Source: a virus (Duplodnaviria > Caudoviricetes). Taken from it: a DNA stretch of 64,000 nucleotides. A program made the position numbers and the translations under genes. Location of the stretch: the IMG/VR virus record IMGVR_UViG_3300021255_003058, positions 1 through 64,000 of that record; one strand, 5' to 3'. The notes under the pieces are model-generated. The model did not search any database and was not told where the DNA came from. It saw nothing but the letters and a program-made list of their open reading frames with translations. Below are positions 6,446-20,553 of the stretch, piece after piece. Numbering within the stretch: position 1 is the first letter of the stretch; the number at the start of each line of letters is the position of its first letter.

Positions 6446-6556
6446 AATTATTTAATTTTTATTTATTATTGAAAATTTGCAATTTTCAAATTGCAATAAT
6501 ATTTAATGGTTTGCCTCCACCAAAAGGAGTTTTGCTTAGGAACTTTAACCAAATCG

Positions 6557-6627
6557 TAGTCCCAGTAGGACTCGAACCCACCTCAGCTGGTTTAGAAGCA
6601 GCGGCACAACCTCTGTACCATGGGACC
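6557..6627 (-). tRNA. tRNA-Sup(CUA), amber suppressor
   Basis: Cloverleaf; anticodon arm GCTGC-TTCTAAA-CCAGC, loop centre CTA; same C31.C39 mismatch as tRNA-Thr at 8304. Confidence 0.75.
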
Positions 6628-6632
6628 AAATT

Positions 6633-6722
6633 TGTCAATAACCTTTATAACTATTAGGGATTTCACCTAAACCTGCACCTCGACCGTACCCGTGCTAAAT
6701 TACACCATAGTAGTTATTGACA
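6633..6722 (-). ncRNA. tRNA-like element inside a TGTCAATAAC/GTTATTGACA stem
   Basis: D-arm-like GTGT/GCAC; T-arm-like TTAGG-TGAAATC-CCTAA. Confidence 0.4.
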
Positions 6723-6754
6723 TTTAACAAACATATTGATACAACAAAATTTGA

Positions 6755-6822
6755 AAGCTATACTGGAATCGAACCTGCCTTTCTTGCACTACCAAGCGTA
6801 CTAACCGATATACTAATAGCCT
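6755..6822 (-). tRNA. tRNA-like gene with truncated anticodon arm
   Basis: Acceptor, D and T arms present; anticodon arm CTTG-GTAGTG-CAAG. Confidence 0.55.
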
Positions 6823-6905
6823 TTACACTGTTCATCATACAGCGTTCCTTAAATATAAATAATTTCCAATAAGTGATGAATTTATTTTCTATTATTTATA
6901 TTATG

Positions 6906-6977
6906 CACGGACTGCAGGAATCGAACCCACATCCACGGTTTTGGAGACCGTCATAATAACCGTTATACTAAGTCCGT
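6906..6977 (-). tRNA. tRNA-Trp(CCA)
   Basis: Cloverleaf, loop CTCCAAA. Confidence 0.9.
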
Positions 6978-6980
6978 GTG

Positions 6981-7213
6981 TTGATGAGTAAATTTGCGAG
7001 CTACGGACTAAAGAAACCACGGCTACAAAACGTGGATTGCATTATCTCTTTGAGATTTTACTCTTCTGTTGCGTTGCACCTTATGAGCTCTCACGAAACT
7101 CAACTCCTTTCACTGGGCGAGGACTATTTCTTAGATCCAACCAACGTAATAAGAAGAAGTCGACATTTGCTTATTACTTACCCCAATCCTACTCAGAGGC
7201 CTGTACTCATCAA
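6981..7213 (-). ncRNA. Putative structured ncRNA
   Basis: GC-richer non-coding block closed by TTGATGAGTA/TACTCATCAA. Confidence 0.4.
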
Positions 7214-7360
7214 ATTATATTAAAAACTTGCTTCTGGTGAAGTCAGATTTTTTCAAATCTTCGGTTCCTTGATTCTTCTCCGATAACCTCGTTAATGTGT
7301 ATACCCATAACTGTTAAAACGGTAACCAGTGTCATGAACTGTGTTAAGCAAGTTAATTAG

Positions 7361-7431
7361 TTGGGTCAGGCAGATTCGAACTGCCACTACAAGGACCAAA
7401 ATCTTGTGTACTGCCATTATACGATGGCCCA
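7361..7431 (-). tRNA. tRNA-Gln(TTG)
   Basis: Cloverleaf, loop TTTTGGT. Confidence 0.9.
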
Positions 7432-7438
7432 ATAAATA

Positions 7439-7548
7439 AAACAAACCTGTAACATTCTTATAAAGAAATAAAAATGTAATCGTAATAAAATAAAAATCAA
7501 ACAAACAATAAAATATGAAGTATCTCTATAATACAACAAGGTTTGTTT
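7439..7548 (-). ncRNA. Bipartite intron-like element, permuted order, U-rich cargo
   Basis: AAACAAACCT-TGTTGTA-TTATAGAGA-TACTTC...TCTTTATAA-GAATGTTAC-AGGTTTGTTT. Confidence 0.7.
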
Positions 7549-7682
7549 TTTGCTGTTTTTAACATTCCTTGTGTATATTCACTTATTTAAGTTATAATAC
7601 AACAAGGTTTGTTTTTGTTGTTTTTAACATTCCTTGTGTATATTCACTTATTTAAGTTATAATACAACAAGGTTTGTTTTTG
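7527..7682. repeat. Tandem repeat, 65-66 bp unit, about 2.4 copies
   Basis: tataatacaacaaggtttgtttt at 7527, 7593 and 7658 with near-identical intervening sequence. Confidence 0.85.
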
Positions 7683-7806
7683 TTTGACGTACAGTTACCA
7701 AAATATGGGTTAAGATTACTTACTGTAATCACCATGCAGATATTGGATTACTTACCAATGTCCAGTACTTAACTTTATAATCTCATATTTGACACTTTGT
7801 TACGTG

Positions 7807-7879
7807 TGGAGCCACCGGGCTTCGAACCCGGGATCTCTGCGTGCAAGGCAGAAGTGTTAGCCAACTATACCATGACCCC
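7807..7879 (-). tRNA. tRNA-Ala(TGC)
   Basis: Cloverleaf, loop CTTGCAC. Confidence 0.9.
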
Positions 7880-7936
7880 AAATGGTAATTTTTTATATCA
7901 CTAAATTTATCAAGAGAACTACCAAACTCATTGATT

Positions 7937-8075
7937 ATATCAAGGAACGTTCGACAAAAGTTCATAGAGTTGGATTCGAACCAACGACCTCCAGTTTTCA
8001 AGGCTGGTGTTCTACCACTGAACTACCCTTTCAAATTATTGGGAAAGAAGTAACTCTTATCTACACCATTGACAT
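7937..8075 (-). tRNA. Circularly permuted tRNA (anticodon TGA) flanked by split intron-like element
   Basis: Order: element 3' half, (C)TTTCCCA, spacer, GAAAGGG..D..anticodon..T arm, element 5' half. Confidence 0.7.
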
Positions 8076-8078
8076 TTG

Positions 8079-8149
8079 TTGCGTAGGGAGAAGTCGAACC
8101 CCCAGCACAAGGTTATGAGCCTTATATGTTACCCTTACACCACCACGCG
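8079..8149 (-). tRNA. tRNA-Met(CAT), C1:A72 initiator-like
   Basis: Cloverleaf, loop CTCATAA. Confidence 0.85.
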
Positions 8150-8303
8150 ATATTTACTACTCTGTATATAAACAAAAAAATCAATTTTAAATAATTGGAC
8201 AGATTTTACTGTTACTGTCATCACCTACACCTACGATTAGGAAACTCGTTTGAATTATTTCAGGGACGGAATACATTACGTTGAGGCGCGACCTCTTTTG
8301 ATG

Positions 8304-8375
8304 AGGCGCTACTGAGAATCGAACTCAGATTATCGGGTTACAAAGCCGAGGTAATAACCATTATACTAAAGCGCC
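8304..8375 (-). tRNA. tRNA-Thr(TGT)
   Basis: Cloverleaf, loop TTTGTAA. Confidence 0.85.
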
Positions 8376-8385
8376 ATTTCTTTAA

Positions 8386-8468
8386 AATTTCATGTAACTA
8401 ACAAAGAAAGTATTATATAATATAAACCTTAACATATTGATGTAACTCTCTTTTACAACAATGAAATT
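8386..8468 (-). ncRNA. Bipartite intron-like element, permuted order, short cargo
   Basis: AATTTCAT-TGTTGTA-AAAGAGAGT-TACATC...ACTTTCTTT-GTTAGTTAC-ATGAAATT. Confidence 0.75.
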
Positions 8469-8470
8469 AG

Positions 8471-8554
8471 TTGCGGGGGTTGGAATCGAACCAACACAAG
8501 CATTTTCTGTCTCAAGGTTATGAGCCTTGCATCTTACCATTAGACTACCCCACG
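8471..8554 (-). tRNA. tRNA-Met(CAT), C1:A72, long variable region
   Basis: Cloverleaf, loop CTCATAA, 17-nt variable region. Confidence 0.8.
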
Positions 8555-8626
8555 ATTTTTTAAAAATTTATTCCTTTTGTTTAATAATAATTAAACCAAT
8601 TTAGTTTTTATCATTTAATTTATGTG

Positions 8627-8700
8627 TAGGGTGTGATGGACTTGAACCACCGACCTTGAAGGTATAAGCTTCCTGCGCTAACCTACTGCGCCAACACCCC
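8627..8700 (-). tRNA. tRNA-Ile(TAT)
   Basis: Cloverleaf, loop CTTATAC. Confidence 0.85.
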
Positions 8701-8759
8701 ATATTATAATCATTATAAATAAATATAGTTTTCTAAAAAAATCAATTCAAAAATATATG

Positions 8760-8924
8760 TTGCCACTGCAGGACTCGAACCTGCGACCCCGAGCTTATCA
8801 GGCTGAAGTAACTCTTATCTTCAACAATAATATCATTCATATGTTTACATATTATAATTAATAATATTACGTAACTATCGACAAAGTAAACGTTACGTGC
8901 TCTATCCAACTGAGCTAAATGGCA
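8760..8924 (-). tRNA. tRNA-Ile(GAT) with 91-nt intron (8805-8895) in anticodon stem
   Basis: Removing the insert restores the stem CG|AGC/GCTCG and a full cloverleaf. Confidence 0.85.
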
Positions 8925-8930
8925 ATTTTG

Positions 8931-9150
8931 TAGCGGCCATGGGAGTCGAACCCATTATTTGTAGGTGCTATATCCCTACCGTGATCGTTTCCTAAACAAG
9001 TAACTTAGTTCCTCACTTTATCCCGGGCTTGCTTAACATTTAACCTTGTTTATTTCTTGATGCTGTTAAATACTCATATCAAAATTATAAGTTTTAACAT
9101 AGTCCGTCGACCACATCAACTTAGAAACATTTCCGTTTCACTCGGACACT
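8931..9150 (-). tRNA. tRNA-like gene with about 145-nt D-loop insertion and 9-nt anticodon loop
   Basis: GTGA/TCAC D stem, GTAGG/CCTAC stem, canonical T arm. Confidence 0.5.
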
Positions 9151-9161
9151 GAAGTTAATTG

Positions 9162-9296
9162 CGGGGACGATTGGAGTCGAACCAATTTTTGATTATTTGA
9201 CAGATAATTGCATTGAAGTAACTCACACTCTACACTATCATTATATTAATGAAGAAAAACGAATGAAGTTTTATACTACCGTTTTGCTACATCCCC
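9162..9296 (-). tRNA. tRNA-Asp(GTC) with about 63-nt intron (9215-9277) in D loop
   Basis: Cloverleaf restored after removing insert ending GAGTTACTTC. Confidence 0.8.
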
Positions 9297-9303
9297 ATAA
9301 TTG

Positions 9304-9439
9304 CTGGAGGGGTTGGATTCGAACCAACACTCTTTTGTTTATCAGACAAATACATTAACCTTTGAAGTAACTCACATTCTACACTACCTTCTGGAGAACC
9401 ACAAACGAAGTTTTAAATCTTTTTTTATGTTACCCTCCA
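9304..9439 (-). tRNA. tRNA-Ile(GAT) with about 63-nt intron (9364-9426) in D loop
   Basis: Cloverleaf restored after removing insert ending GAGTTACTTC. Confidence 0.8.
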
Positions 9440-9445
9440 ATAATG

Positions 9446-9518
9446 CGCGCCCTGAAGGAGTCGAACCCTCATCTACTGGGTTTGGAGTCCAGTGCCTTAA
9501 CCATTAGACCAAAGACGC
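9446..9518 (-). tRNA. tRNA-Trp(CCA)
   Basis: Cloverleaf, loop CTCCAAA. Confidence 0.9.
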
Positions 9519-9546
9519 ATTATAGTTTATTTTATTCAAACAATTG

Positions 9547-9625
9547 TACAGCGGGTGGGACTCGAACCCACATACACCAATTACGTGGTTAATGTCAGTG
9601 TATAAGACTGCGACGATACCGCTGT
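9547..9625 (-). tRNA. D-armless tRNA-like gene, anticodon TAT, long variable region
   Basis: Perfect acceptor ACAGCGG/CCGCTGT and T arm; only about 8 nt where the D arm should be. Confidence 0.65.
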
Positions 9626-9629
9626 AAAT

Positions 9630-9822
9630 AATATTTTAACTCACCTAAGTATTTTGTGATATGGTCCACTCAACTTATCCTTTGGCCTCGGATCCTAAGT
9701 AATTGCAACTCCTTAGGGTACTGTACCACCTACACAAGATCATTTCTTACTTTCACCATAACATGTAGATGTAACTCTACTACTTATAAGTATATGTCTT
9801 GTTCCGATCTGGTTAAAATATT
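9630..9822 (-). ncRNA. Putative structured ncRNA
   Basis: Closed by AATATTTTAAC/GTTAAAATATT; internal hairpins. Confidence 0.4.
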
Positions 9823-9824
9823 TG

Positions 9825-9896
9825 TTGCGGAAGTGAGATTTGAACTCCACCACTAAGGTTATGAGCCTTGTATGCGACCAACACACTGCTTCCGCG
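9825..9896 (-). tRNA. tRNA-Met(CAT), C1:A72 initiator-like
   Basis: Cloverleaf, loop CTCATAA. Confidence 0.75.
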
Positions 9897-9902
9897 ATAT
9901 TG

Positions 9903-9976
9903 TGCCTCCATAGGGACTCGAACCCTAACCTCACAGATTAAGAGTCTGGTACGCTAACCATTAACGCCATGGAGGC
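9903..9976 (-). tRNA. tRNA-Lys(CTT)
   Basis: Cloverleaf, loop CTCTTAA. Confidence 0.9.
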
Positions 9977-9979
9977 AAA

Positions 9980-10591
9980 TTATGTATTTAAAAATTCTTT
10001 TATTTGATTAATCAAATTTTCTTTATCATTATTTGACATTTTTTTATATTCAGACCAACGTATTCTAATTCCTTCCCAACCTTTTGTTTTTAAATATTCT
10101 GTTCTTTCAATATCATGTTTAATCATATAATCTGAATAATGTTGTTCACCATCAATTTCTACATATTTCATTAAATTTTCATTATAAAAATCTAATTCAT
10201 ATCTATCAATTTGTTTATGATATTGTAATGGAATATTTTCTTTAACAAACAATTCTTCAAAATATTTTTCTGGATAACTTTGTTTAGAAGAATGATTAAT
10301 TATAAATCCAACTTTATTTGGATGCTCGTTTAAATATTTTTTTCTTGAATTTGATATTTTATTTTTTACTTCATCAGTATGATGTTTTCCTTTAAATGTT
10401 TCTCCGCATTTTTTTCTTGTTTCATCAGAAACAATAATTTCTCTACCTTCTTCTTTAGCTTTTGTAAATTGATTACTATTTTTTGAACGTAATAAATATA
10501 CTGGAGTTAATTTATTAGGATTTTTTGAACATCTCATTTCATGTTGAATTAAATGTTTACATTCCTTTCCACAATATTTACAATTAAACAT
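9980..10591 (-). CDS. Free-standing homing endonuclease-like protein (Zn finger, NUMOD3, DUF559/Vsr-like nuclease)
   Basis: CKYCGKEC, KGKHHTDEVKNKIS, YELDF..VEIDGEQH; start moved to MFNCKYC. Confidence 0.75.
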   Translation of the reverse strand: MFNCKYCGKECKHLIQHEMRCSKNPNKLTPVYLLRSKNSNQFTKAKEEGREIIVSDETRKKCGETFKGKHHTDEVKNKISNSRKKYLNEHPNKVGFIINHSSKQSYPEKYFEELFVKENIPLQYHKQIDRYELDFYNENLMKYVEIDGEQHYSDYMIKHDIERTEYLKTKGWEGIRIRWSEYKKMSNNDKENLINQIKEFLNT

Positions 10592-10609
10592 ATATTCAAA
10601 ATATTTTTG

Positions 10610-10680
10610 TGACCCCACTGGGAATCGGACCCAGGTCACGTGATTAAAAGTCACGGGCTTTACCACTAAGCTATGAGGTC
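10610..10680 (-). tRNA. tRNA-Lys(TTT)
   Basis: Cloverleaf, loop CTTTTAA. Confidence 0.9.
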
Positions 10681-10725
10681 ATAATCATATTTAAATATAG
10701 TTATTTTACCTTTATAATTTAATAG

Positions 10726-10861
10726 TGCCATCGTGGGAATCGAACCTATTCACATATTCAACTTCTATTCATATATATTGTCTCGAGCTATATACTTTCG
10801 ATTGGTTGAACCCGCCTGTACGGGGCGGCTACAGTTACCAATATACTGTGATAAACCGGCA
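10726..10861 (-). ncRNA. Expanded tRNA-like element (GTA loop, about 60-nt variable region)
   Basis: CAGT/ACTG D-like arm, CCGCC-CCGTACA-GGCGG arm, TTCAAC/GTTGAA long arm, GGTTCGATTCC T loop. Confidence 0.45.
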
Positions 10862-10874
10862 TTGTTAAGAATTG

Positions 10875-10968
10875 TGCCTGAGGTAGGATTCGAACCTACT
10901 TACTGCGAGCCCACTACGACAATTTGTTGATGCAGATCGGTTTTACAGACCGGTGCCGTTACTCAGGC
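10875..10968 (-). tRNA. D-armless tRNA-Tyr(GTA)-like gene with 37-nt variable region
   Basis: Perfect acceptor GCCTGAG/CTCAGGC, loop CTGTAAA, T arm; no D arm. Confidence 0.65.
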
Positions 10969-11135
10969 TTGGTATAGAATGCTTCTGAGTCATCTATACC
11001 ACAATAAAATACTGCTTCCTTCATAACTCTTAACTTTTAAATTTATTAATAAAACTCGGACTTACACTGTTTTAACCATTTCTAAACTAAGTAGTACTAC
11101 TTCTCCAAGGATTCGAACCTTGGTTCTGATGCCAG

Positions 11136-11220
11136 TGGGGTGGGAGGGATTCGAACCCCCTGCGTTTCATAGTAACGGATTTACAGTCCGCCGCCCTTCC
11201 ACCATCAGAGCAGCCACCCC
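11136..11220 (-). tRNA. tRNA-Tyr(GTA)
   Basis: Cloverleaf with long variable arm. Confidence 0.9.
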
Positions 11221-11486
11221 AAAAGGTGGAAATTAAAACCGGAATTTCCACGAACCGGCTAAACGTATTTAGCAGTGTTTCATGCGTGGTATAAGTTTAG
11301 ATTCAACCACTGATAAGCCACAACTTATCGCTGTCCGAATTTAAAAGGCTCGGATCTGTTCCTTGTTACTGTTGAGAATTATATCGTCTCAACAGCCCGT
11401 GTTAAATCTATTTTCAACAAACCGACTTAACCAAACTATCTCCATTTCTTCCCATATAATTTGTTATATAAACATATAACAAATAG

Positions 11487-11559
11487 CGGTCCGTACGGGA
11501 ATCGAACCCGTACCACACGGCGTGACAAGCCGGCATTGTTACCGTTCAACCAACGGACC
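11487..11559 (-). tRNA. tRNA-Asp(GTC)
   Basis: Cloverleaf, loop TTGTCAC. Confidence 0.9.
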
Positions 11560-11696
11560 AAATATGGTTGTCATCCAGATACCAAAAAACTGGGAGCAGA
11601 TTTCTCGATTATCCATTCCAACGTCATTGTCTTTACACTTGATACACCTGGACCAAGAGGAAAAATGATAACCCTTATAAGCATGGCATGCAAGAG

Positions 11697-11769
11697 TGGG
11701 GCGGCAGAGAATCGAACTCTGGTTGGTAGGATGTAAGCCTACTGTCCTGGACCACTAAACGACCTCCCC
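11697..11769 (-). tRNA. tRNA-Val(TAC)
   Basis: Cloverleaf, loop CTTACAT. Confidence 0.85.
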
Positions 11770-11936
11770 ATTAAAATTCATATAAATTCACCGAATGGAT
11801 TTGACATTTGTTTTCTTAAGACAAGTCAACATTTACACATTTATTATTCGGTTTATATCAGCCGAACAGCCGTGACAGCTTCCACTTAAATATGAATTTT
11901 TTATATATTGATGCAGTCACATCCAATTTTAATTTG

Positions 11937-12025
11937 TAGCTCCGATGGGAGTTGAACCCACACGCCCATTTGTCTGGACCTCAGTTTTTAAGACTGATGC
12001 GTACTACCAATTTCGCCACGGAGCC
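11937..12025 (-). tRNA. tRNA-Leu(TAA)
   Basis: Cloverleaf with long variable arm. Confidence 0.9.
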
Positions 12026-12051
12026 ATATTGAACAATATGAAACCGTTGTG

Positions 12052-12124
12052 TACCTCCGGTGGGACTCGAACCCACAATCCTCGGCTTAAGAGACCGCAG
12101 CTTTACCAACTCAGCTACAGAGGC
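12052..12124 (-). tRNA. tRNA-Lys(CTT)
   Basis: Cloverleaf. Confidence 0.9.
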
Positions 12125-12138
12125 ATAATTTATAATTG

Positions 12139-12213
12139 TGCTCCCATAGTGATTCGAACCCTGACATCATATGTTAAAAATCTGGTACGCTAACCAATTA
12201 ACGCCATGAGAGC
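12139..12213 (-). pseudogene. Degenerate tRNA-Lys(TTT)
   Basis: Anticodon stem unpaired (CCAGA/CATAT); resembles the Lys gene at 9903. Confidence 0.65.
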
Positions 12214-12219
12214 ATATTG

Positions 12220-12292
12220 TACCCCCTCAGGGACTCGAACCCTGGATCCTCGGCTTAAAAGGCCGCAGCTTTACCAGCTCAGCTAAGAGGGC
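12220..12292 (-). tRNA. tRNA-Lys(TTT)
   Basis: Cloverleaf. Confidence 0.9.
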
Positions 12293-12477
12293 ATACACAT
12301 AATAAATTTCTGAATTAATTATTAAATTCATTTGTTTTGATTTTGATTTTACGTGCATGCTTCTTTTGGTTAAAACATAATACCAATTTCTCTCAGGAAA
12401 CATACACAACTAACGTTTTCGTTTCATTGTTTTCATATGTTTTTAATTTATATTTATAAGTTATTATTTTCTATTTG

Positions 12478-12551
12478 CGGTGACGAGGGGATTCGAACCC
12501 CCACCACACGGATTGACAGTCCGGCATTGTAACCATTCAAACCACGCCACC
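12478..12551 (-). tRNA. tRNA-Asp(GTC)
   Basis: Cloverleaf. Confidence 0.9.
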
Positions 12552-12576
12552 AAAATATATCACTTAGTTTATTTGG

Positions 12577-12648
12577 CGGTCCATGAGGGAGTCGAACCCT
12601 CATCTTGTGATCGACAGTCACATATTCTAACCGTTATACCAATGGACC
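12577..12648 (-). tRNA. tRNA-Asp(GTC)
   Basis: Cloverleaf, encoded CCA. Confidence 0.9.
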
Positions 12649-12693
12649 AAATATCTGTCACCTAAGTGATCCAAATTATTATTTTCTTCATAG

Positions 12694-12779
12694 TAGCTCG
12701 AGCGGGACTCGAACCCGCACGCCCCTTTCGGAACACGACATTTTAAGTGTCGGAAGTCTACCAATTCCTCCATCGAGCC
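12694..12779 (-). tRNA. tRNA-Leu(TAA)
   Basis: Cloverleaf with long variable arm. Confidence 0.9.
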
Positions 12780-12861
12780 ACATTATGGATGAAATTAGCG
12801 TTTTCGGACCACGGGAAGCTCTTCATCCTTTCAGTTGTCAATTCAACACTCAAACCACTCG

Positions 12862-12935
12862 CGGGGACAGAGGGATTCGAACCCACAACCATCGGCTTAA
12901 CAGGCCGCCGCTCTGACCATTATAGCTATATCCCC
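12862..12935 (-). tRNA. tRNA-Asn(GTT)
   Basis: Cloverleaf. Confidence 0.9.
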
Positions 12936-13145
12936 AAGTATAAAAATCAATTCTATACAAGTTTCATTACGGACACTTATTAGAAACTTTATCCTTTGTC
13001 ATAATAACCTCCGAAGCTTTTTGACCTACCCAATGTTATTGTTATTTTATTACTCTCATATTGTCTAAGACCTCTTAATAGTTATTGCAAATGTTCTATT
13101 AAGTTTTCATAAATAATCAATAACCCATAACCTCAAATTGATTTG

Positions 13146-13266
13146 CTATTCAGTGGGATTCGAACCCAACTAACTTGACCGGTTTCCTCATTGCAATCAG
13201 GCCTAATCAAGTAGCCACTTACATCTTCCCTACTGGGACGTTTTATCCATTTAAACTATAAACAAA
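13146..13266 (-). ncRNA. tRNA-like element with stub anticodon hairpin and long insertion
   Basis: D arm GTTT/AAAC, TCCC-AGTA-GGGA, long CTACTTGATT/GGTCAAGTTAG arm, T arm. Confidence 0.5.
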
Positions 13267-13376
13267 TTACTACGGCAATTAGTAATGATTTGTGAGATTC
13301 ACCAGTCCTACTCGATTATTTTGCCGTTCATCTTTCAGTTCACCATTTTGTTACTGGATCTGTCCCGCCATGTTCG

Positions 13377-13448
13377 CGGGAGTAGAGGGAATCGAACCCA
13401 CACCGAGTGGTTAACAGCCACCTGCTACGACCTTCGAGCTATACTCCC
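13377..13448 (-). tRNA. tRNA-Asn(GTT)
   Basis: Cloverleaf. Confidence 0.9.
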
Positions 13449-13633
13449 AAATTTAGATGTTTAATTCTAAATTTTTTGTCAATTAATTTATATTTATCTT
13501 TATATGATTCAATTACACCTAAATTATATAAATCATCTCCAAAATAAATATCTAAATTATCTGTAAATTGTTCCCATTTACAAAAATCTTTTAATGTAGG
13601 ATAACCTTTAATTTCAATATACATCGAAGACAT
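13439..13633 (-). CDS. hypothetical small protein
   Basis: AT-rich coding-like ORF between tRNAs; TAG stop overlaps tRNA-Asn 5' end. Confidence 0.4.
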   Translation of the reverse strand: MSSMYIEIKGYPTLKDFCKWEQFTDNLDIYFGDDLYNLGVIESYKDKYKLIDKKFRIKHLNLGV

Positions 13634-13643
13634 TCATATTAAG

Positions 13644-13732
13644 TTCCTAATATTGGATTTACACCAATGACCTCTCTGTTACTACTCTAAAGGCAACGAT
13701 GAGCGCTCTTATAATATCTGAGCTAATTAGGA
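13644..13732 (-). ncRNA. tRNA-like element with extended anticodon arm
   Basis: Acceptor TCCTAAT/ATTAGGA, D arm GCTC/GAGC, T loop TGTAAAT. Confidence 0.55.
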
Positions 13733-14086
13733 TTCTTAATGATATGGAAATTCTGTTAATGGTAACTGACCAGATTTGCAATAATTGCTTATGGTTACTG
13801 ACCATATTATATTTACTGAACTATTTCGCTGAGGTGCTTGGCATCTCATTGAAAGGGGTTTTCCACCACTCCTCTTCCGTATCAGTTTTTATATTTTGTT
13901 GTACCAATATGTCAATGATCGCTTCGTTCATTGAAACTCTCAGTTTCAATAATGAAATGATTATGTCAAAGAACTCAATTTCAAAAACTAAATATAATTA
14001 GTTTTCAAATATTATATTAATAATATAGAACTTATTTTCAAAATTTCAAATTTCTAAGAAAAATTTTCAAATATTTTCTACATTTG

Positions 14087-14212
14087 TGATTATGGTTGGA
14101 TTCGAACCAACGTAGCTCAGGGTAACTTACTTCCTCAGTTTAACTTTATCAAGAAACCTTCTAACGTTTTCAGCAGTGACCTGATAGCACATCCAATCTG
14201 CTTCACATAATC
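14087..14212 (-). tRNA. tRNA-like gene with about 60-nt anticodon-loop region
   Basis: Acceptor GATTATG/CATAATC, TCAGG/CCTGA stem, canonical T arm. Confidence 0.55.
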
Positions 14213-14228
14213 AAAGATCTATTTTTTG

Positions 14229-14296
14229 TTTCTACATCCGGATTCGAACCGAAGACCCCTTCTTCCAAGTGCTCTTCCTAACTGAGCTATGTAGAA
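14229..14296 (-). tRNA. tRNA-like gene with truncated anticodon arm
   Basis: Good acceptor, D and T arms; anticodon arm only CTT-GGAAG-AAG. Confidence 0.6.
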
Positions 14297-14391
14297 AATC
14301 AGCTTTCATAAAAACTACCATACTCCATTATATACATACGGCCGATATTATATAACTTCATTACTCTCATTAATAATCCCACTTAAAAATG

Positions 14392-14462
14392 TTGGACCTA
14401 CGGGACTCGAACCCATAACATGAGGACCAAAATCTCACGTGTTACCATTACACCAAGGTCCA
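14392..14462 (-). tRNA. tRNA-Gln(TTG)
   Basis: Cloverleaf. Confidence 0.9.
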
Positions 14463-14853
14463 ATTTATAAAAAATCCAGTACTATTCTTCTATAATGTTC
14501 ATTTAAGTGCGAATCCTTGCTTTACATGTGGTGGGTCACTTTACCCTGATTTTCAAATTCCCATGGAAATTATCAATCCCTCATATATAGTACCTTTGTA
14601 CTTTTACAAATTGTCGTTACATAATAATATCCTATTACACGAGTACCTTTAACCTACTGACAACTTGTGGATTTTATTTTCTCTTGAGTTCATATTTTCA
14701 AAGAACGAAATAAACAATTTCAAATATTAAATGTTCATATGAAAAATTCATATTATATTAGTATTCAAATATTATTTATTTTTATTATAATTATAATATA
14801 GTATCTTTAGATTTAATTTCAAATTATTTAAGAATTTTTTAGAAAATATTTTC

Positions 14854-14949
14854 AAAAAATAAGTGGTTAAGTTTTTCACCTAACCACTTGCAGCTATATC
14901 GTTTATAATTATATTCTTATTATCCTTCCATATCATTCTGCAAGTGGTC
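14854..14949 (-). promoter_or_regulatory. Attenuator 2: terminator with competing antiterminator
   Basis: Terminator AAGTGGTTAGG-TGAAAAA-CTTAACCACTT-ATTTTTT; GACCACTTGCAG in the leader ORF pairs with CTGCAAGTGGTT. Confidence 0.75.
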
Positions 14950-15030
14950 ATTCATTAACGCATAATCATTATTCCAAGCATTATCTAATGTTTGGTCTAA
15001 TATTTGTTTATATGTATTGACTAATTGCAT
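14920..15030 (-). CDS. Leader peptide 2 MQLVNTYKQILDQTLDNAWNNDYALMNDHLQNDMEG
   Basis: 36-codon ORF overlapping the antiterminator; composition matches downstream tRNAs. Confidence 0.7.
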   Translation of the reverse strand: MQLVNTYKQILDQTLDNAWNNDYALMNDHLQNDMEG

Positions 15031-15213
15031 TTGTGATATTTTCTTTAATTTAATTTGTATATACTTACATCTATTGATGTAATTTAATTAATAATAAAAA
15101 TTTAATTCTTAATTGTTATATAAAAATAGACTATATAAATAAAAAATTTCATAAAAATGAATGATTATGAAAATATTTTTCAAAAATCATCCAAATATAG
15201 TGTCAATTGCGAG

Positions 15214-15295
15214 TACCTCCCCTGGGATTCGAACCCAGACCCAATTAAGGACCGCTTTTGAGACGGTTGCGTAGACCCAATTCCGCCAGAGAGGC
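15214..15295 (-). tRNA. tRNA-Leu(CAA)
   Basis: Cloverleaf with variable arm. Confidence 0.9.
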
Positions 15296-15426
15296 ATAAT
15301 TATAAAAAGTTAGAATCATATACAGTAAGGGCTTCGTTCATTGGCTTCTCATTTCATGTATTTCTACAATCTCATCTATTCCTTCCCTTAATCATAACTT
15401 TATATAACAAATGTTGATACAATAAA

Positions 15427-15675
15427 TTAGTTTATCTTATACAATTCTTCATTATCAATTGCACGTCTTATCCATCTCATCAATATTAATGCTTTATCGT
15501 AATGAGACATAAATGTAGCTGTTTCTCCAACATCATGTTTATCAGACAAATCTATATCAAGTGAATAAATTGTACCATCTTCTACTGTTATATGATAAAC
15601 AGCTATTCCTCCAGATTTTACACAATCAAGTTCAGCAGAACCTTTAACAATAGTTTTTAAATCATGAATAATCAT
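15427..15675 (-). CDS. hypothetical protein
   Basis: 82-aa coding-like ORF. Confidence 0.7.
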   Translation of the reverse strand: MIIHDLKTIVKGSAELDCVKSGGIAVYHITVEDGTIYSLDIDLSDKHDVGETATFMSHYDKALILMRWIRRAIDNEELYKIN

Positions 15676-15699
15676 TTATACTAATATTTATTTTTATTG

Positions 15700-15779
15700 T
15701 GCGGCTGGTGGGATTCGAACCCACACCCAATTAAGGACGGCTTCTTAAACCGCTGCGTCGACCGTTGCGCCACAGCCGC
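15700..15779 (-). tRNA. tRNA-Leu(AAG)
   Basis: Cloverleaf, loop TTAAGAA. Confidence 0.85.
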
Positions 15780-15920
15780 ATTTAGTATTTTCTGCATAGG
15801 AGAACCTTGGATTTAATGAGTAACGATAACCACTCATCCTATGGTTATTGAAAATACTTTTACTATTGTTTTATTTTAACCGATAAAACTAAATAGCTTA
15901 AATTGTCGATATCGTTTTTG

Positions 15921-15994
15921 TACCCCGAGAAGGATTCGAACCCTCATCATGACATCCGTAGTGTCGTATTCTAAATCCATTGAACTACCGGGGC
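15921..15994 (-). tRNA. tRNA-Arg(ACG)
   Basis: Cloverleaf, loop CTACGGA. Confidence 0.9.
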
Positions 15995-16003
15995 ATTTAT
16001 TTG

Positions 16004-16079
16004 TTGAACTGGACAGATTCGAATTGTCGACCTTCTGTGTGTAAAACAAATACTACTGACCTAATTGAATTACAACCCA
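16004..16079 (-). tRNA. tRNA-Val(TAC), degenerate
   Basis: Cloverleaf with mismatches, loop TTTACAC. Confidence 0.6.
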
Positions 16080-16088
16080 ATATATATG

Positions 16089-16162
16089 CTGGGGTACCGG
16101 GACTCGAACCCAGAACTTCTGCTTCAGAGACAAATGTGTTAACCAATTACACGCATACCCTA
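16089..16162 (-). tRNA. tRNA-Gln(CTG)
   Basis: Cloverleaf, loop CTCTGAA. Confidence 0.8.
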
Positions 16163-16264
16163 ATTTAATAAATTAGACACATTCTGTTATTTAGTTAACC
16201 GAGCAGATATTTTGATTCTTTCAGGTTTCAATCATCTAAGAAACAAATGCAGGCATCTAATTTG

Positions 16265-16351
16265 TACCCTGGGGGAGACTTGAACTCCCACGCTACTATT
16301 ACTTCGCACTTGCTTCTAAGGCAAGGATGTCTACCATTCCAACACCAGGGT
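16265..16351 (-). tRNA. tRNA-Leu(TAG)
   Basis: Cloverleaf with long variable arm. Confidence 0.9.
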
Positions 16352-16566
16352 AAATAGTGTCCATGTTCCATTAACGCAGGTCTTAGACACCTAACCGCAC
16401 GAATAACCATCACAACAATTGGTTACGTTATCAATCAACCAAATTACCTTTCTATAAGATTTTATGACATCCAGTTTGGAGGCAACGGCCATCTTGCTCT
16501 AATGCTGCGTACGCCTGGCACCGATTTTACATCTTAGTAAATAAGATAACTTATAGATCATAATTG

Positions 16567-16635
16567 CCACCGAAGATGGAATCAAACCATCGTCTCTTGG
16601 CAAAATCCAAGGCTCTATCATTGAGCTAATCGGTG
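16567..16635 (-). tRNA. tRNA-like gene with 6-nt anticodon loop
   Basis: CTTGG-ATTTTG-CCAAG; D and T arms present. Confidence 0.55.
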
Positions 16636-16865
16636 AAGTGACCTTTCGAGTTTCAACGGGGCTCCTCGTCCCCTATAGGATGTGACACATATCCGAAGAT
16701 ACAAAATGCAACAACTCTAACTAACGCTTCTACAGATTCCTTAGGTCAACAAGGAATGGAACAAACGATTTCCCCTAAGTGACAGAGACATTAGACTGTT
16801 TCGATTCATAGGCCTGTGCACCAACCTATGAATACCCGTAATTGTATATAGTATTATCTTTAAAA

Positions 16866-18002
16866 TTATTTCAATTGGTCTTCAATTTCCTTAATCATTT
16901 TATTTACCTTTTCAAGATATTCTTTTGCATCACGTATTGATTCATCAGATGAAGATCTATCGAAACTTCCCCAGTTTTCAGGATTTTCTTTACCTCTTTC
17001 TTTTGCGCGTTGAACTGATTTTTCTGCTGAATGTTTATAATTCATTGATTTATAGAATTGTTCATATGCATAAGAAACATATCTCATTAAATCTGATAAA
17101 TCAAAACGCATATCCATATTTTCAGGTTTTGACATTACCTTTTGGAATAAAGCAACAACATCATCATTTGTTTTCTTTATTTCATCAAACAAAACATTTG
17201 GATCATCTTGAAGTTTCTTTGCTTTGATTTCTTTTACCATTACTTTATATCTTGCTTGTTGTTGTCTAAGAAGATTATCCATGCTATCTTTGTCCATTTC
17301 TATTGAACCTTTTTGAGATTCTTCGCGTTCTTTATGTAATTGATCATAATCTTTAATCATTGATTCTGTTATTTCAAGAACATAAACATCAAAATCTTTA
17401 ATTAATTCTAATGTTTCATTAACTTTTAAAGGACGAACATCATATTTATATTTCTTTGCAGTTTTCTCTTGGACTCCTTGTTTCCAACCTTCTGACTCAA
17501 AATAATATACTCTAACATCTCCTAAAGTTTTTGCATATCCTTTAATAAATGCAACAATATCTTTAGTACCTGGAGTACAAACAATCATATCAGCAATAGT
17601 TTTCTTTGCATAAACTGATTTTAAGAACTTTACAAATTCTTTATCGTCACCTTTATATTGTTTGAAATCACTATCTTTAATTTCTGACCATTTCAAACCA
17701 CGAATACCACTTTTCTTGTCACCCCATCTTGGAGTTTCTGTTAATGGACCAAAAATAGATGCAAAAGTTTTTGCTGTCTTTGTTGGCTTATAACCGCGAC
17801 CTCCTTCTTTGTATCTTTGCTCTTGTTTCTTGTCGTTTTCAGCATGTTCCTTTTCAGCATCTTTAATTGCTTTTGCAAGATTTGTTAATAATGATGATTG
17901 AAAACTCTCATTAATTGTTTCATCAATAATTAAATTACATGTTTCAATTAATATTTCATTATTACATAAACCGTCTGATACGAATTCAAATAAATTTTTC
18001 AT
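16866..18002 (-). CDS. hypothetical protein
   Basis: 378-aa ORF. Confidence 0.8.
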   Translation of the reverse strand: MKNLFEFVSDGLCNNEILIETCNLIIDETINESFQSSLLTNLAKAIKDAEKEHAENDKKQEQRYKEGGRGYKPTKTAKTFASIFGPLTETPRWGDKKSGIRGLKWSEIKDSDFKQYKGDDKEFVKFLKSVYAKKTIADMIVCTPGTKDIVAFIKGYAKTLGDVRVYYFESEGWKQGVQEKTAKKYKYDVRPLKVNETLELIKDFDVYVLEITESMIKDYDQLHKEREESQKGSIEMDKDSMDNLLRQQQARYKVMVKEIKAKKLQDDPNVLFDEIKKTNDDVVALFQKVMSKPENMDMRFDLSDLMRYVSYAYEQFYKSMNYKHSAEKSVQRAKERGKENPENWGSFDRSSSDESIRDAKEYLEKVNKMIKEIEDQLK

Positions 18003-18038
18003 TATATTATATATATTTTTTTATATATAAAAATAAAA

Positions 18039-18359
18039 TTATAATTTCATTTGTTTCTGATATTTTCTATCTCTCTTATCAATTTCTGATAATGGAGAAA
18101 CACCAGCATCAAGCAATTCAATTTTCTCAAATCCATTTGCTTCAGTTATAAGAGAATCTTTTTCAGATATGCATCCTTCATATCGTTCTCCATAAGATCC
18201 AGTCATCTTTTTTGTTGCAGGATCTAAATCTCCCCAATCTGCAGAATGTGTATTACCAATAGGTTCTACAAAATATTTCTTTCCTGTTATTTTAGACTTT
18301 ACAATAAAACGACCAGTTTTATCGCTTTCTTGTAAAAATCTCTTTTCATCAATTTTCAT
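18039..18359 (-). CDS. hypothetical protein
   Basis: Start moved to MKIDEK to avoid tRNA overlap. Confidence 0.75.
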   Translation of the reverse strand: MKIDEKRFLQESDKTGRFIVKSKITGKKYFVEPIGNTHSADWGDLDPATKKMTGSYGERYEGCISEKDSLITEANGFEKIELLDAGVSPLSEIDKRDRKYQKQMKL

Positions 18360-18379
18360 TTTCTCTCTATATATTATTG

Positions 18380-18470
18380 CGGAGAGGGTGGGGCTCGAAC
18401 CCACGCACCGGGTATTAGCCGACCTAAGACGTTAGCAGTGTCTCCCCTTCACCAACTTGGGTACCTCTCC
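18380..18470 (-). tRNA. tRNA-Ser(GCT)
   Basis: Cloverleaf with long variable arm. Confidence 0.9.
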
Positions 18471-18536
18471 AAATTGGTTGATCAATTGGCTCAACCATAG
18501 GCCTTAATAGATGAAATGGTTACAACTTACTTACTT

Positions 18537-18621
18537 AATTCCGCGCGAGATTCGAACTCATATTTCTTCAATGAACGTTCGCAAAGTGTTTTCTCCTTTA
18601 TTAAATTTAAACTACAAGAAT
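18537..18621 (-). pseudogene. Degenerate tRNA-like gene
   Basis: T arm and D stem present; enlarged D and anticodon loops. Confidence 0.4.
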
Positions 18622-18640
18622 CTTTCAGTCATTTCATTTG

Positions 18641-18714
18641 GGTGACTTGTGGGTAACGATCCCACTACCTGTTGAGCCACAATCAACCGCTCTACCATTT
18701 GAGCTAAAGCCACC
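18641..18714 (-). tRNA. tRNA-His(GTG)
   Basis: G-1/C73, loop TTGTGGC, atypical T loop. Confidence 0.8.
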
Positions 18715-18848
18715 ATATAAATTAGTTTTTCTCATTAAGAGCTTTTGCATTATAAAACTATAAACTTTCCCGAATCTGTACGTTTCGGTAACTGATGTTC
18801 TTATGGTAATCAATTAACAGTACGTTAAAGCGCGCAACTTTGTTTATG

Positions 18849-18923
18849 GGTATCGTGTCAGATTCGAACTGACATCTCAGTGATTCACAGTCACCGTCTT
18901 TCACCAGTTAAGTTAACGACACC
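18849..18923 (-). tRNA. tRNA-His(GTG)
   Basis: G-1/C73, loop CTGTGAA. Confidence 0.85.
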
Positions 18924-19158
18924 ATATTAATGACAGGTCAACCATTCTCCCTGTCTTGTCCCGATATGTTTTTCACTATAATCAAGGCTTATAGCTGCTC
19001 AAGCAAAGAGGGCGGGATTTCAACATTATATTGTAAATTAAAATTCACAATTTTTATAACCTCATGAAGATGGCCCTACACGGATTAAAAAGGCTGCAGA
19101 GAATCCTCTATTGGAGCAGGGTGGACATGCTGCGTACCTCACAGCTCCCTGCATATTG

Positions 19159-19230
19159 AGCAGTGTACCGGATTTGAACCGGCTCCTTAAGAATGGCGAT
19201 CTCATATGCAACCATTAACACCTACACTGC
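19159..19230 (-). tRNA. tRNA-Gly(GCC)
   Basis: Cloverleaf, U73. Confidence 0.85.
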
Positions 19231-19231
19231 A

Positions 19232-20143: not shown

Positions 20144-20224
20144 ATATTAATATAGTTTTATATAATTAATAATAAATATAGCAGAAGAAAAAAGTCAAAC
20201 TATAATTGTTAAAAAATGTTAAAG

Positions 20225-20297
20225 AGCGACTGATGGGAGTCGAACCCACATCACTGGATTGGAAGTCGAGTATAATAAACCGTTATACGACAGTCGC
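20225..20297 (-). tRNA. tRNA-Gly(TCC)
   Basis: Cloverleaf, U73. Confidence 0.85.
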
Positions 20298-20417
20298 AAA
20301 TTCGGTTTTCCTTAGATCCGAAAACTTAGTACCGTGTCTCGCCTCTGTACCCTCGCCTTAGCATACTTCCATTATATTATATAGTACGTAATTCAAATAT
20401 AATGTCTAAGGATTTTG

Positions 20418-20551
20418 TAGGGGAGGTTGGACTCGAACCAACATAATCTTTAACCAAAATAAAGTGTGTAAACCTGAAGTAACTCTAATCTACAGCATTC
20501 ATTAAGAAGCAACAGCGAATAAAGTCAATAAATTAATTTCACCACTCCCCT
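20418..20551 (-). tRNA. tRNA-Gln(TTG) with about 61-nt intron (20476-20536) in D loop
   Basis: Cloverleaf restored after removing insert ending GAGTTACTTC. Confidence 0.8.
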
Positions 20552-20553
20552 AG

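What the first reader, a model, noticed from the sequence alone, without database searches (positions are those of the whole stretch)
9547..10968. Two D-armless tRNAs with D-loop-like sequence in an enlarged variable arm
9547-9625 (TAT) and 10875-10968 (GTA) have perfect acceptor and T arms but only about 8 nt in place of the D arm. Their long variable regions contain D-loop-like GTAATTGGT and GTCGTAGTGG. Inference: the elbow-forming GG may be supplied from the variable arm, giving a rewired tRNA fold. D-armless tRNAs are otherwise familiar from mitochondria.
Basis: partly seen in the sequence, partly recalled or inferred. Interest (0 to 1): 0.7.

Follow-up and report, generated by a model that had tools for sequence, protein, structure and literature searches.

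The report
Phage tRNAs with a permuted D-arm
Two conserved genes in a giant phage's tRNA cluster encode an isoleucine and a tyrosine tRNA that are not cloverleaves: one D-stem strand and the D-loop lie after the anticodon arm and pair back across it, a layout that I found in no paper and that gene finders miss.

Summary
Both elements are real and sit at the stated coordinates on the minus strand. Each has a 7-bp acceptor stem, U8-A9, an anticodon arm (UAU, GUA), a consensus T arm and A73, but no D hairpin.

They are not D-armless. The 4-5 nt after U8-A9 pair with a segment 3' of the anticodon arm, and that segment is followed by an A-N(1-2)-GG D-loop-like stretch. The D-stem strands and D-loop are all present, but in permuted order.

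Evidence:
- **Tyr type:** in 49 distinct relatives the helix is 97.6% paired, in 18 strand combinations. A second helix crosses it, making a pseudoknot.
- **Ile type:** the same layout recurs with at least 8 covarying versions of the helix. A close relative is an unannotated Arg(UCU) gene in Salmonella phage Felix O1, and 263 GenBank phage records match that gene.
- **Need:** in one complete relative, the permuted gene is the only tRNA-Tyr.

Most likely these are working tRNAs that keep the L-shape with a different strand order. Charging, translation and the 3D fold are untested.

This scan has noted the same layout on other phage DNA. I found no paper describing it.

The parts
9619..9625 (-). 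Ile(UAU) gene: acceptor stem, 5' strand
   Evidence: 7/7 Watson-Crick with 9548-9554. 6 of 7 pairs covary in relatives.
9617..9618 (-). Ile gene: U8-A9
   Evidence: TA is invariant in all class I relatives aligned.
9613..9616 (-). Ile gene: helix H1, 5' strand (takes the place of D-stem positions 22-25)
   Evidence: Pairs with 9583-9586 as 3 Watson-Crick pairs plus a conserved U.U at the top. The three pairs are 100% paired, with 2-4 pair types each.
9595..9611 (-). Ile gene: anticodon arm, anticodon TAT at 9602-9604
   Evidence: 4 Watson-Crick pairs plus a G.A at the top. Loop is CTTATAC. Stem pairs covary.
9587..9594 (-). Ile gene: 8-nt linker from the anticodon stem to the H1 3' strand
   Evidence: Length is 5-8 nt in relatives.
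9583..9586 (-). Ile gene: helix H1, 3' strand (takes the place of D-stem positions 10-13)
9572..9582 (-). Ile gene: D-loop-like A14-A15-..-G18-G19-..-A21, then U48
   Evidence: A and GG are conserved. The nucleotide after A14 and the nucleotide before the T stem co-vary as A..U (13 distinct sequences) or G..C (3), with no other combination.
9555..9571 (-). Ile gene: T arm
   Evidence: 5/5 stem, loop TTCGAGT.
9547..9554 (-). Ile gene: acceptor 3' strand and discriminator A73. No encoded CCA.
   Evidence: The trailer starts CAAT, like most tRNAs of the array.
10962..10968 (-). Tyr(GUA) gene: acceptor stem, 5' strand
   Evidence: 7/7 with 10876-10882. All 7 pairs covary in 49 relatives.
10960..10961 (-). 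Tyr gene: U8-A9
   Evidence: TA in 49 of 49 relatives.
10955..10959 (-). Tyr gene: helix H1, 5' strand (D-stem 3'-strand equivalent)
   Evidence: Pairs with 10916-10920. 97.6% of 245 cells are paired, 4 of 5 pairs show changes on both sides, and there are 18 strand combinations.
10936..10954 (-). Tyr gene: anticodon arm, anticodon GTA at 10944-10946, with one flanking nucleotide on each side
   Evidence: Stem pairs covary. The first stem pair is C.A in this copy.
10932..10935 (-). Tyr gene: helix H2, 5' strand (variable-arm stem)
   Evidence: Pairs with 10903-10906. 100% paired in 49 relatives, with one pair switching U-A to C-G in 6 of them. RNAalifold predicts this helix on its own.
10921..10931 (-). 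Tyr gene: 11-nt A-rich linker inside the variable-arm loop
   Evidence: Conserved AAAT core. Role unknown.
10916..10920 (-). Tyr gene: helix H1, 3' strand (D-stem 5'-strand equivalent). It crosses H2, which makes the pseudoknot.
10907..10915 (-). Tyr gene: D-loop-like A-G-U-G-G-G-..
   Evidence: A-N(1-2)-GG in 49 of 49 relatives.
10903..10906 (-). Tyr gene: helix H2, 3' strand
10883..10899 (-). Tyr gene: T arm
   Evidence: 5/5 stem, loop TTCGAAT.
10875..10882 (-). Tyr gene: acceptor 3' strand and discriminator A73
   Evidence: A73 in 49 of 49 relatives.

Best explanation
Both genes encode working elongator tRNAs, for AUA (Ile, anticodon UAU) and for UAY (Tyr, anticodon GUA). In both, the D-plus-anticodon domain is internally permuted.

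The order along the RNA is:
1. Acceptor 5' strand, then U8-A9.
2. A strand equivalent to D-stem positions 22-25, then position 26.
3. The anticodon arm.
4. A linker.
5. A strand equivalent to D-stem positions 10-13.
6. A D-loop-like A14, R15, G18-G19.
7. The T arm, then the acceptor 3' strand.

The D stem still forms, as helix H1, but it closes around the anticodon arm instead of around the D-loop. The D-loop is then free to dock on the T-loop and build the elbow. In the Tyr gene the relocated strand and loop lie inside the loop of a 4-bp variable-arm stem (H2), so H1 and H2 form a pseudoknot.

Shown: the secondary structure, its conservation, and its spread among phages.

Inferred:
- The RNA keeps the L-shape. 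The three new chain joins (9 to 22, 43/44 to 10, 21 to 48) link residues that are neighbours in the canonical tRNA core.
- Host IleRS and TyrRS charge it, and the ribosome uses it.
- It arose by partial tandem duplication of the D-anticodon segment followed by loss of the outer copies.
For: Structure:
- H1 in the Tyr type: 97.6% of cells paired, against 75.8% in shuffles and 15-58% when the partner is slid. 39 double-change cells against 8.3 expected, with 0 of 500 shuffles as high. 18 strand combinations.
- H1 and H2 were not part of the retrieval pattern.
- H2: 100% paired, with one compensatory switch seen in 6 sequences.
- H1 in the Ile/Arg type: three pairs 100% paired, each with 2-4 pair types. 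At least 8 versions are seen across.

Tertiary marks:
- U8-A9, A14, GG, the T-loop consensus and A73 are invariant or nearly so.
- In class I the 15/48 positions covary as A..U or G..C in 16 of 16 distinct sequences.

Selection:
- The Ile gene is 95-100% identical in four contigs whose flanks are 10-77% identical.

tRNA-like behaviour:
- The anticodon is fixed within each family while the stems covary.
- The 3' trailer is the same as in neighbouring tRNAs.
- The phage uses ATA at 36.6 and TAT at 58.3 per 1000 codons.
- In the complete 183-kb relative G004, canonical tRNAs cover 19 amino acids, and Tyr comes only from the permuted gene.
- Felix O1 carries a 77%-identical permuted gene with anticodon UCU and an encoded CCA. 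Its only annotated tRNA-Arg has anticodon ACG (ARAGORN), and no canonical UCU gene appears in bases 1-50,000 of the record, which hold every tRNA gene listed there.
- 263 GenBank phage records match the Felix O1 gene.
Against: - No expression, processing, charging or structural data exist for any member.
- This window also holds a canonical Ile(UAU) gene (8626-8700) and a canonical Tyr(GUA) gene (11135-11220), so neither permuted gene is needed here.
- H1 of the Ile type has only 3 Watson-Crick pairs. Its anticodon stem starts with a non-Watson-Crick pair in 8 of 9 aligned sequences.
- Three Tyr relatives have C33 and one has C37.
- In the Tyr type the 15/48 covariation is not seen.
- Single-sequence folding does not return H1.
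- No phage IleRS or TyrRS was found in three records, so host enzymes would have to accept the altered core.
- 44 of the 49 Tyr-type sequences were retrieved with a pattern that fixed the anticodon loop and the T arm, so conservation of those two parts is partly built in.
Confidence: 0.7

Rival explanations
1. The fold is as described, but the RNA is a tRNA mimic that is not used in translation. It could be a decoy for host anticodon nucleases or other tRNA-targeting defences, a partner of a phage protein, or a regulator of the array.
For: - The window already has canonical Ile(UAU) and Tyr(GUA) genes.
- The same array holds several tRNA look-alikes with large inserts. Earlier notes of this scan read these as Y-RNA-like (unchecked by me).
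- Some relatives have C33 or C37.
Against: - The anticodon, A73 and all the marks needed for charging and decoding are kept.
- The shared insert motif of the array's look-alikes is absent from both genes, and no YrlA or other Rfam family matches there at E up to 10.
- In G004 the permuted gene is the only Tyr tRNA in a set that otherwise covers 19 amino acids.
- Felix O1 encodes CCA on its copy.
Confidence: 0.18
2. These are truly D-armless tRNAs in the mitochondrial sense. H1 is only an extension of the anticodon stem, and the A..GG stretch is a flexible connector that does not rebuild the D-loop/T-loop elbow.
For: - H1 stacked on the anticodon stem is also what D-armless mitochondrial tRNA-Ser(AGY) shows (PMC9427863, PMC4013460; titles and abstracts only).
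- No structural data exist here.
Against: - A14 and GG are invariant, and the T-loop keeps full consensus. D-armless mitochondrial tRNAs have lost these marks (my own knowledge).
- The 15/48-type covariation in class I points to a Levitt-like tertiary pair.
- H1 plus the anticodon stem together have the length of the canonical D-plus-anticodon stack.
Confidence: 0.08
3. They are decaying tRNA pseudogenes that lost the D arm and gained junk in the variable region.
For: - Gene finders skip them.
- The array holds other damaged-looking tRNA remnants.
Against: - 49 distinct Tyr-type and more than 16 distinct class I sequences keep every helix through compensatory changes.
- The gene is far better conserved than its flanks.
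- 252 near full-length copies exist in GenBank phages.
Confidence: 0.02

Closest known systems
Canonical bacterial and phage tRNA-Ile(UAU) and class II tRNA-Tyr(GUA) (Rfam RF00005), for example the window's own genes at 8626-8700 and 11135-11220
   Same: Same acceptor stem, U8-A9, anticodon arm and anticodon, T arm, A73 and G18-G19-type D-loop sequence. The Tyr gene also has a variable-arm stem.
   Different: Strand order differs. The 5' D-stem strand and the D-loop come after the anticodon arm, so the D helix encloses the anticodon arm. The Tyr form is a pseudoknot. Neither can be drawn as a cloverleaf.
Unannotated tRNA-Arg(UCU)-like gene of Salmonella phage Felix O1 (NC_005282 25951-26029) and its 263 GenBank relatives
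   Same: Same permuted layout. 77% identical to the window's Ile gene, with a near-identical linker and D-loop-like segment.
   Different: Anticodon is UCU, the acceptor stem differs, and CCA is encoded. It is not described as a tRNA in the record. Relatives are labelled tRNA-OTHER, tRNA-TERM or tRNA-Leu, or carry no label.
D-armless mitochondrial tRNA-Ser(AGY) and nematode mitochondrial tRNAs (PMC9427863, PMC4013460)
   Same: No D hairpin between the acceptor and anticodon stems, and a short 5' connector.
   Different: Those RNAs have lost the D-loop/T-loop elbow marks. Here the D stem, A14, GG and the consensus T-loop are all kept, only in another order.
Circularly permuted tRNA genes of Cyanidioschyzon merolae (Soma 2014, PMC3978253, as cited in PMC10085705)
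   Same: tRNA parts are encoded in a non-standard order.
   Different: In those genes the whole gene is permuted at the termini, and processing restores a normal cloverleaf. Here the termini are normal, the permutation is internal, and it would persist in the mature RNA.
Non-circular permutations of self-cleaving ribozymes (PMC10085705)
   Same: A within-molecule rearrangement of helix strands that should keep the 3D fold.
   Different: A different RNA class. That paper states that no non-circular permutation was previously known in natural RNAs, and it does not treat tRNA that way.
allo-tRNAs with 8/4 or 9/3 acceptor branches (PMC5389517)
   Same: Non-standard tRNA architectures found in bacteria and phages through metagenomes.
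   Different: allo-tRNAs are still cloverleaves with altered stem lengths. Here the stems have standard lengths (7/5) and it is the topology that differs.

Membership tests
tRNA (Rfam RF00005, cloverleaf) | 7-bp acceptor stem with a discriminator base | tested here: met
   7/7 Watson-Crick and A73 in both genes. The stem covaries in relatives.
tRNA (Rfam RF00005, cloverleaf) | T arm: 5-bp stem and a TTCRANY loop | tested here: met
tRNA (Rfam RF00005, cloverleaf) | Anticodon arm with a 7-nt loop, U33 and a purine at 37 | tested here: met
   The first stem pair is non-Watson-Crick in both window copies.
tRNA (Rfam RF00005, cloverleaf) | D hairpin between positions 9 and 26 | tested here: not met
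   The Rfam alignment deletes the 15 D-arm positions. No alternative register gives a local D hairpin when the sequence is inspected.
tRNA (Rfam RF00005, cloverleaf) | Score at or above the family's gathering threshold (29 bits) | tested here: inconclusive
   30.3 and 34.8 bits in sensitive mode, but neither is reported in the default gathering run.
tRNA (function) | Aminoacylated and used by the ribosome | not testable with these tools
   There are indirect hints only: the sole Tyr gene in G004 and the encoded CCA in Felix O1.
Permuted-core phage tRNAs (unpublished class; Felix O1 Arg(UCU) type) | Order: UA, 22-25 equivalent, 26, anticodon arm, linker, 10-13 equivalent, A..GG, T arm. The two D-stem strands covary. 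| tested here: met
   Both genes fit. Model R1, built on this layout, scores non-seed cultured-phage members at 68-88 bits.
D-armless mitochondrial-type tRNA | No D stem, and the D-loop/T-loop elbow marks are lost | tested here: not met
   The H1 helix exists and covaries. A14, GG and the consensus T-loop are conserved.
Circularly permuted tRNA gene (C. merolae type) | The 3' half is encoded upstream of the 5' half, with the mature termini joined in the precursor | tested here: not met
   The acceptor 5' and 3' strands lie at the two ends in normal order.
YrlA-type Y RNA / tRNA mimic with a Ro60-binding stem | A long Ro60-binding helix takes the place of the anticodon arm | tested here: not met
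   A normal anticodon arm is present. No Y-RNA family matches in 9200-11300 at E up to 10. The insert motif shared by the array's look-alikes is absent from both genes.

The most novel reading that the evidence does not exclude
A natural class of translating tRNAs exists outside mitochondria that is not a cloverleaf. An internal permutation of the D-anticodon domain, pseudoknotted in tRNA-Tyr, still yields the L-shape. The class covers several isoacceptors (Ile, Tyr, Arg) in hundreds of phages, including Felix O1. It may have been selected because the altered core escapes host enzymes that attack or inspect tRNAs.
Probability: 0.6. Interest if true: 0.9.

Novelty: new variant of a known kind. 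Interest (0 to 1): 0.8.

Why it matters
- **The cloverleaf rule.** The cloverleaf is treated as universal for cytoplasmic-type tRNAs. A conserved family that builds the same parts in another strand order would show that the L-shape, not the cloverleaf, is what selection keeps. It would also be a rare natural internal permutation of an RNA.
- **Annotation.** ARAGORN, default Rfam and GenBank annotation miss or mislabel these genes, so phage tRNA repertoires and codon-supply analyses are incomplete.
- **Testability.** A close relative sits in cultured model phages (Felix O1, rV5-like and 121Q-like phages), so charging, decoding, structure and resistance to host anticodon nucleases can all be tested directly.
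- **Engineering.** Such scaffolds could also serve as starting points for orthogonal tRNAs.

Tried and rejected
- **Intron or processing reading.** I looked for a canonical D arm in other registers, and for a spliced or re-ordered product. None exists. Both acceptor strands are in normal order, and removing the insert does not restore a D hairpin.
- **Single-sequence folding.** It gives neither H1 nor a convincing alternative (z-scores -1.7 and -2.1).
- **RNAalifold on 49 sequences.** It returns H2 but not H1, as expected for a program that cannot draw pseudoknots. H1 rests on the pair counts.
- **blastn of the Tyr gene against GenBank phages.** No match. The Tyr type was found only in IMG/VR and metagenome contigs.
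- **Phage-encoded TyrRS or IleRS.** None in three records. The window's own contig is only about 44% of a genome, so this is weak evidence.
- **25427-25512 (anticodon TGA, 86 nt).** It looked like a third case, but it has a local 3-bp D hairpin and an ordinary variable arm, so it is not permuted.
- **L006:8200-8280 and L015:7821-7901 (anticodon TCG).** Both fit the layout, but H1 has only 2-3 pairs, so I do not count them as firm members.
- **MAFFT alignment A5.** It misaligned two divergent Ile members, so I used A6 and the model-fitted A9 instead.
- **Literature.** Six full-text searches and two papers read gave no description of this layout. Subscription journals are not covered.
Full report
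**Observation**

The window belongs to a virus record: one linear contig of 116 kb, about 25% G+C, which CheckV estimates at 44% of a genome. Its minus strand carries a tRNA array from about 6.5 to 26.3 kb. ARAGORN genes there, and Rfam reports 54 tRNA matches.

Neither run reports 9547-9625 or 10875-10968. A sensitive Rfam search of 9200-11300 matches both end to end to the tRNA model, at 30.3 and 34.8 bits. In both matches the 15 D-arm positions are deleted, and 20 or 34 nt are inserted in the variable region.

Read segment by segment, each element has:
- a 7/7 acceptor stem;
- U8-A9;
- a 5-bp anticodon stem with a 7-nt loop (anticodons UAU and GUA);
- a 5/5 T stem with a consensus loop;
- A73.

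**What replaces the D arm**

The first diverged relatives showed that the 5 nt after U8-A9 of the Tyr gene change together with a 5-nt segment inside the "variable insert". The D-loop-like A-N-N-GG follows that segment directly. The same holds for the Ile gene, with 4 nt on each side.

I call this helix H1. It encloses the anticodon arm. Mapped on standard numbering:
- The strand after A9 runs toward the anticodon stem, as positions 22-25 do.
- The distal strand runs away from the anticodon stem and continues into A14, R15 and G18-G19, as positions 10-13 do.

All D-arm parts are therefore present, but the block 10-21 has moved behind the block 22-43. This is an internal, non-circular permutation of the D-anticodon domain.

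In the Tyr gene the moved block lies in the loop of a 4-bp stem, H2 (10932-10935 with 10903-10906). H2 sits where the long variable arm of bacterial tRNA-Tyr sits. H1 and H2 cross, so the fold is a pseudoknot.

**Comparative test, Tyr type**

Pattern scans fixed only the anticodon loop and the T arm region. They returned 11 viral and 55 metagenome loci, giving 49 distinct sequences. On a MAFFT alignment made without reference to structure (A8):
- The whole model is 95.3% paired, against 25-52% when partners are slid.
- H1 alone is 97.6% paired (shuffles 75.8 +/- 1.7). It has 39 cells changed on both sides (8.3 +/- 2.1 expected) and a covariation score of 0.564 against 0.142. None of 500 shuffles was as high.
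- H1 occurs in 18 strand combinations.
- H2 is paired in all 196 cells. One pair switches from U-A to C-G in 6 sequences.
- RNAalifold predicts H2 independently.
- U8-A9, A73 and A-N(1-2)-GG are present in 49 of 49.

**Comparative test, Ile type**

Nine sequences align without trouble (A6). The three Watson-Crick pairs of H1 are 100% paired, with 2-4 pair types each. The fourth position is a conserved U.U.

A covariance model of this layout (R1) found further members with anticodons UAU and GAU in other contigs. It scored genes from cultured phages that were not in the seed at 68-88 bits. Across, H1 appears in at least eight versions.

A descriptor for the layout gave 22 hits in the window's contig plus 16 loci, two of them apparently spurious. 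It gave none on the reversed or complemented controls.

**Link to cultured phages**

The first blastn of the region had already hit Felix O1-like phages over the Ile gene at 77% identity. In NC_005282 the match lies at 25951-26029. It is unannotated, and the annotated start of an HNH gene overlaps it.

The Felix O1 gene has the same layout, anticodon UCU (Arg) and an encoded CCA. The only annotated tRNA-Arg in that record has anticodon ACG according to ARAGORN.

The Felix O1 gene matches 263 GenBank phage records, 252 of them nearly full length. They include Felixounavirus, rV5-like, Justusliebigvirus and 121Q-like phages, and Klebsiella and Vibrio phages. Most carry no annotation there, or labels such as tRNA-OTHER, tRNA-TERM or tRNA-Leu.

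**Marks of a canonical core**

In class I, the nucleotide after A14 and the nucleotide just before the T stem are A..U in 13 distinct sequences and G..C in 3, with no mixed case. This is the pattern of the R15-Y48 Levitt pair.

From what is established for yeast tRNA-Phe (my own knowledge, not tested here):
- U8-A14-A21 stacks on the 13-22 pair.
- A9 lies in the D-stem groove at the 12-23 pair.
- Positions 44 and 45 touch 26 and the 10-25 pair.
- The 15-48 layer is next to the layer that holds A21.

So the three new chain joins (9 to 22, 43/44 through a linker to 10, and 21 to 48) connect residues that are already neighbours. H1 plus the anticodon stem also has the length of the normal D-plus-anticodon stack. 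This is why I infer that the L-shape is kept. It remains an inference.

**Evidence that they act as tRNAs**

- The Ile gene is 95-100% identical in four contigs whose 120-nt flanks are 10-77% identical.
- Both genes share the trailer that follows most tRNAs of the array.
- The phage's long ORFs use ATA at 36.6 and TAT at 58.3 per 1000 codons, so both decoders are in demand.
- In G004, a 183-kb relative with terminal repeats that CheckV estimates as complete, ARAGORN and Rfam together find canonical tRNAs for 19 amino acids. The only GUA gene is the permuted one.
- No TyrRS or IleRS domain was found in the three records searched, so host enzymes would have to charge these tRNAs.

**Evidence against and limits**

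- There are no expression or biochemical data for any member.
- This window also has canonical Ile(UAU) and Tyr(GUA) genes.
- H1 of the Ile type is short, and its anticodon stem opens with a mismatch.
- Three Tyr relatives have C33 and one has C37.
- The Tyr type shows no 15/48 covariation.
- The retrieval pattern fixed the anticodon loop and the T arm for most Tyr relatives.

The main rival, which I put at about 0.18, is a tRNA mimic that is not used in translation. This array does hold other tRNA look-alikes with inserts. Decay as pseudogenes is excluded by the covariation.

**Comparison with what is known**

These genes work like ordinary tRNA-Ile and tRNA-Tyr, but they fail the defining cloverleaf feature of a local D hairpin.
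- They are not D-armless in the mitochondrial sense.
- They are not circularly permuted genes of the C. merolae kind.
- They are not allo-tRNAs.
- They are not Y RNAs.

Six full-text searches found no description of this layout. The 2020 review of non-canonical natural tRNAs contains none of the words phage, pseudoknot or permuted. A 2023 paper on permuted ribozymes states that no non-circular permutation was previously known in natural RNAs.

**Earlier notes of this scan**

I reached the permuted reading, before opening the notes. The notes report the same layout for Arg(UCU), Ile(UAU) and Tyr(GUA) genes on other phage DNA. They also report that no paper describes it, and one later check priced the functional claim at about 55 in 100.

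They agree with my reading but are not independent evidence. I confirmed one of their leads, Felix O1, on the sequence itself. This window adds two isoacceptor types side by side in one array, next to their canonical twins.

Noticed in passing
window 9163-9296, 9305-9439, 14088-14212, 20419-20551 (minus strand): Four tRNA-like genes of 125-135 nt have perfect 7-bp acceptor stems and good T arms. Each carries an insert of about 60 nt in the D-loop region, and the inserts share a short motif. ARAGORN misses all four. Earlier notes of this scan read such inserts as Ro60-type Y-RNA handles; I did not test that.
   Followed up: partly
window 6556-6627 (minus strand); also L027:238-310: A tRNA with anticodon CTA (an amber suppressor, which ARAGORN calls tRNA-Pyl) sits at the end of the array, and also in the complete relative G004. 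This hints at TAG read-through or recoding in part of the phage genome. Long ORFs in the window are open under the standard code.
   Followed up: no
window 10690-10870 (minus strand): Between tRNA-Lys and the Tyr gene lie the 3' end of a tRNA-like element, whose T stem is interrupted by 4 nt, and a G+C-rich hairpin. No gene finder calls anything here.
   Followed up: no
window 25427-25512 (minus strand): An 86-nt tRNA-Ser(TGA)-like gene that ARAGORN and default Rfam miss. It has a perfect acceptor stem, a 3-bp local D hairpin reached by a single connector nucleotide, and a long variable arm. It is not of the permuted type.
   Followed up: partly
L005:4200-4280: A tRNA-Lys(TTT) gene has a normal D hairpin, and also a remnant of the relocated D-loop-like segment in its variable region, joined to the same T arm as the permuted Ile genes. 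It may be a recombinant or an evolutionary intermediate.
   Followed up: no
L018 (NC_005282) 25951-26029: Felix O1 carries an unannotated permuted tRNA-Arg(UCU) with an encoded CCA. The annotated HNH endonuclease ORF45 starts inside it at 26003, so that start codon may be misplaced.
   Followed up: partly
window 9980-10591 (minus strand), 22429-23370, 19232-20143: Endonuclease-like ORFs (DUF559/REase-type, plus a zinc-finger protein) are scattered between tRNA genes, as HNH genes are in the Felix O1 array. They are possible drivers of tRNA gene shuffling.
   Followed up: no
whole array, window 6500-26300: Most tRNA genes lack an encoded CCA. In about three quarters of them the discriminator is followed by C-A, most often CAAA or CAAT, which may be a shared 3' processing signal.
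   Followed up: partly
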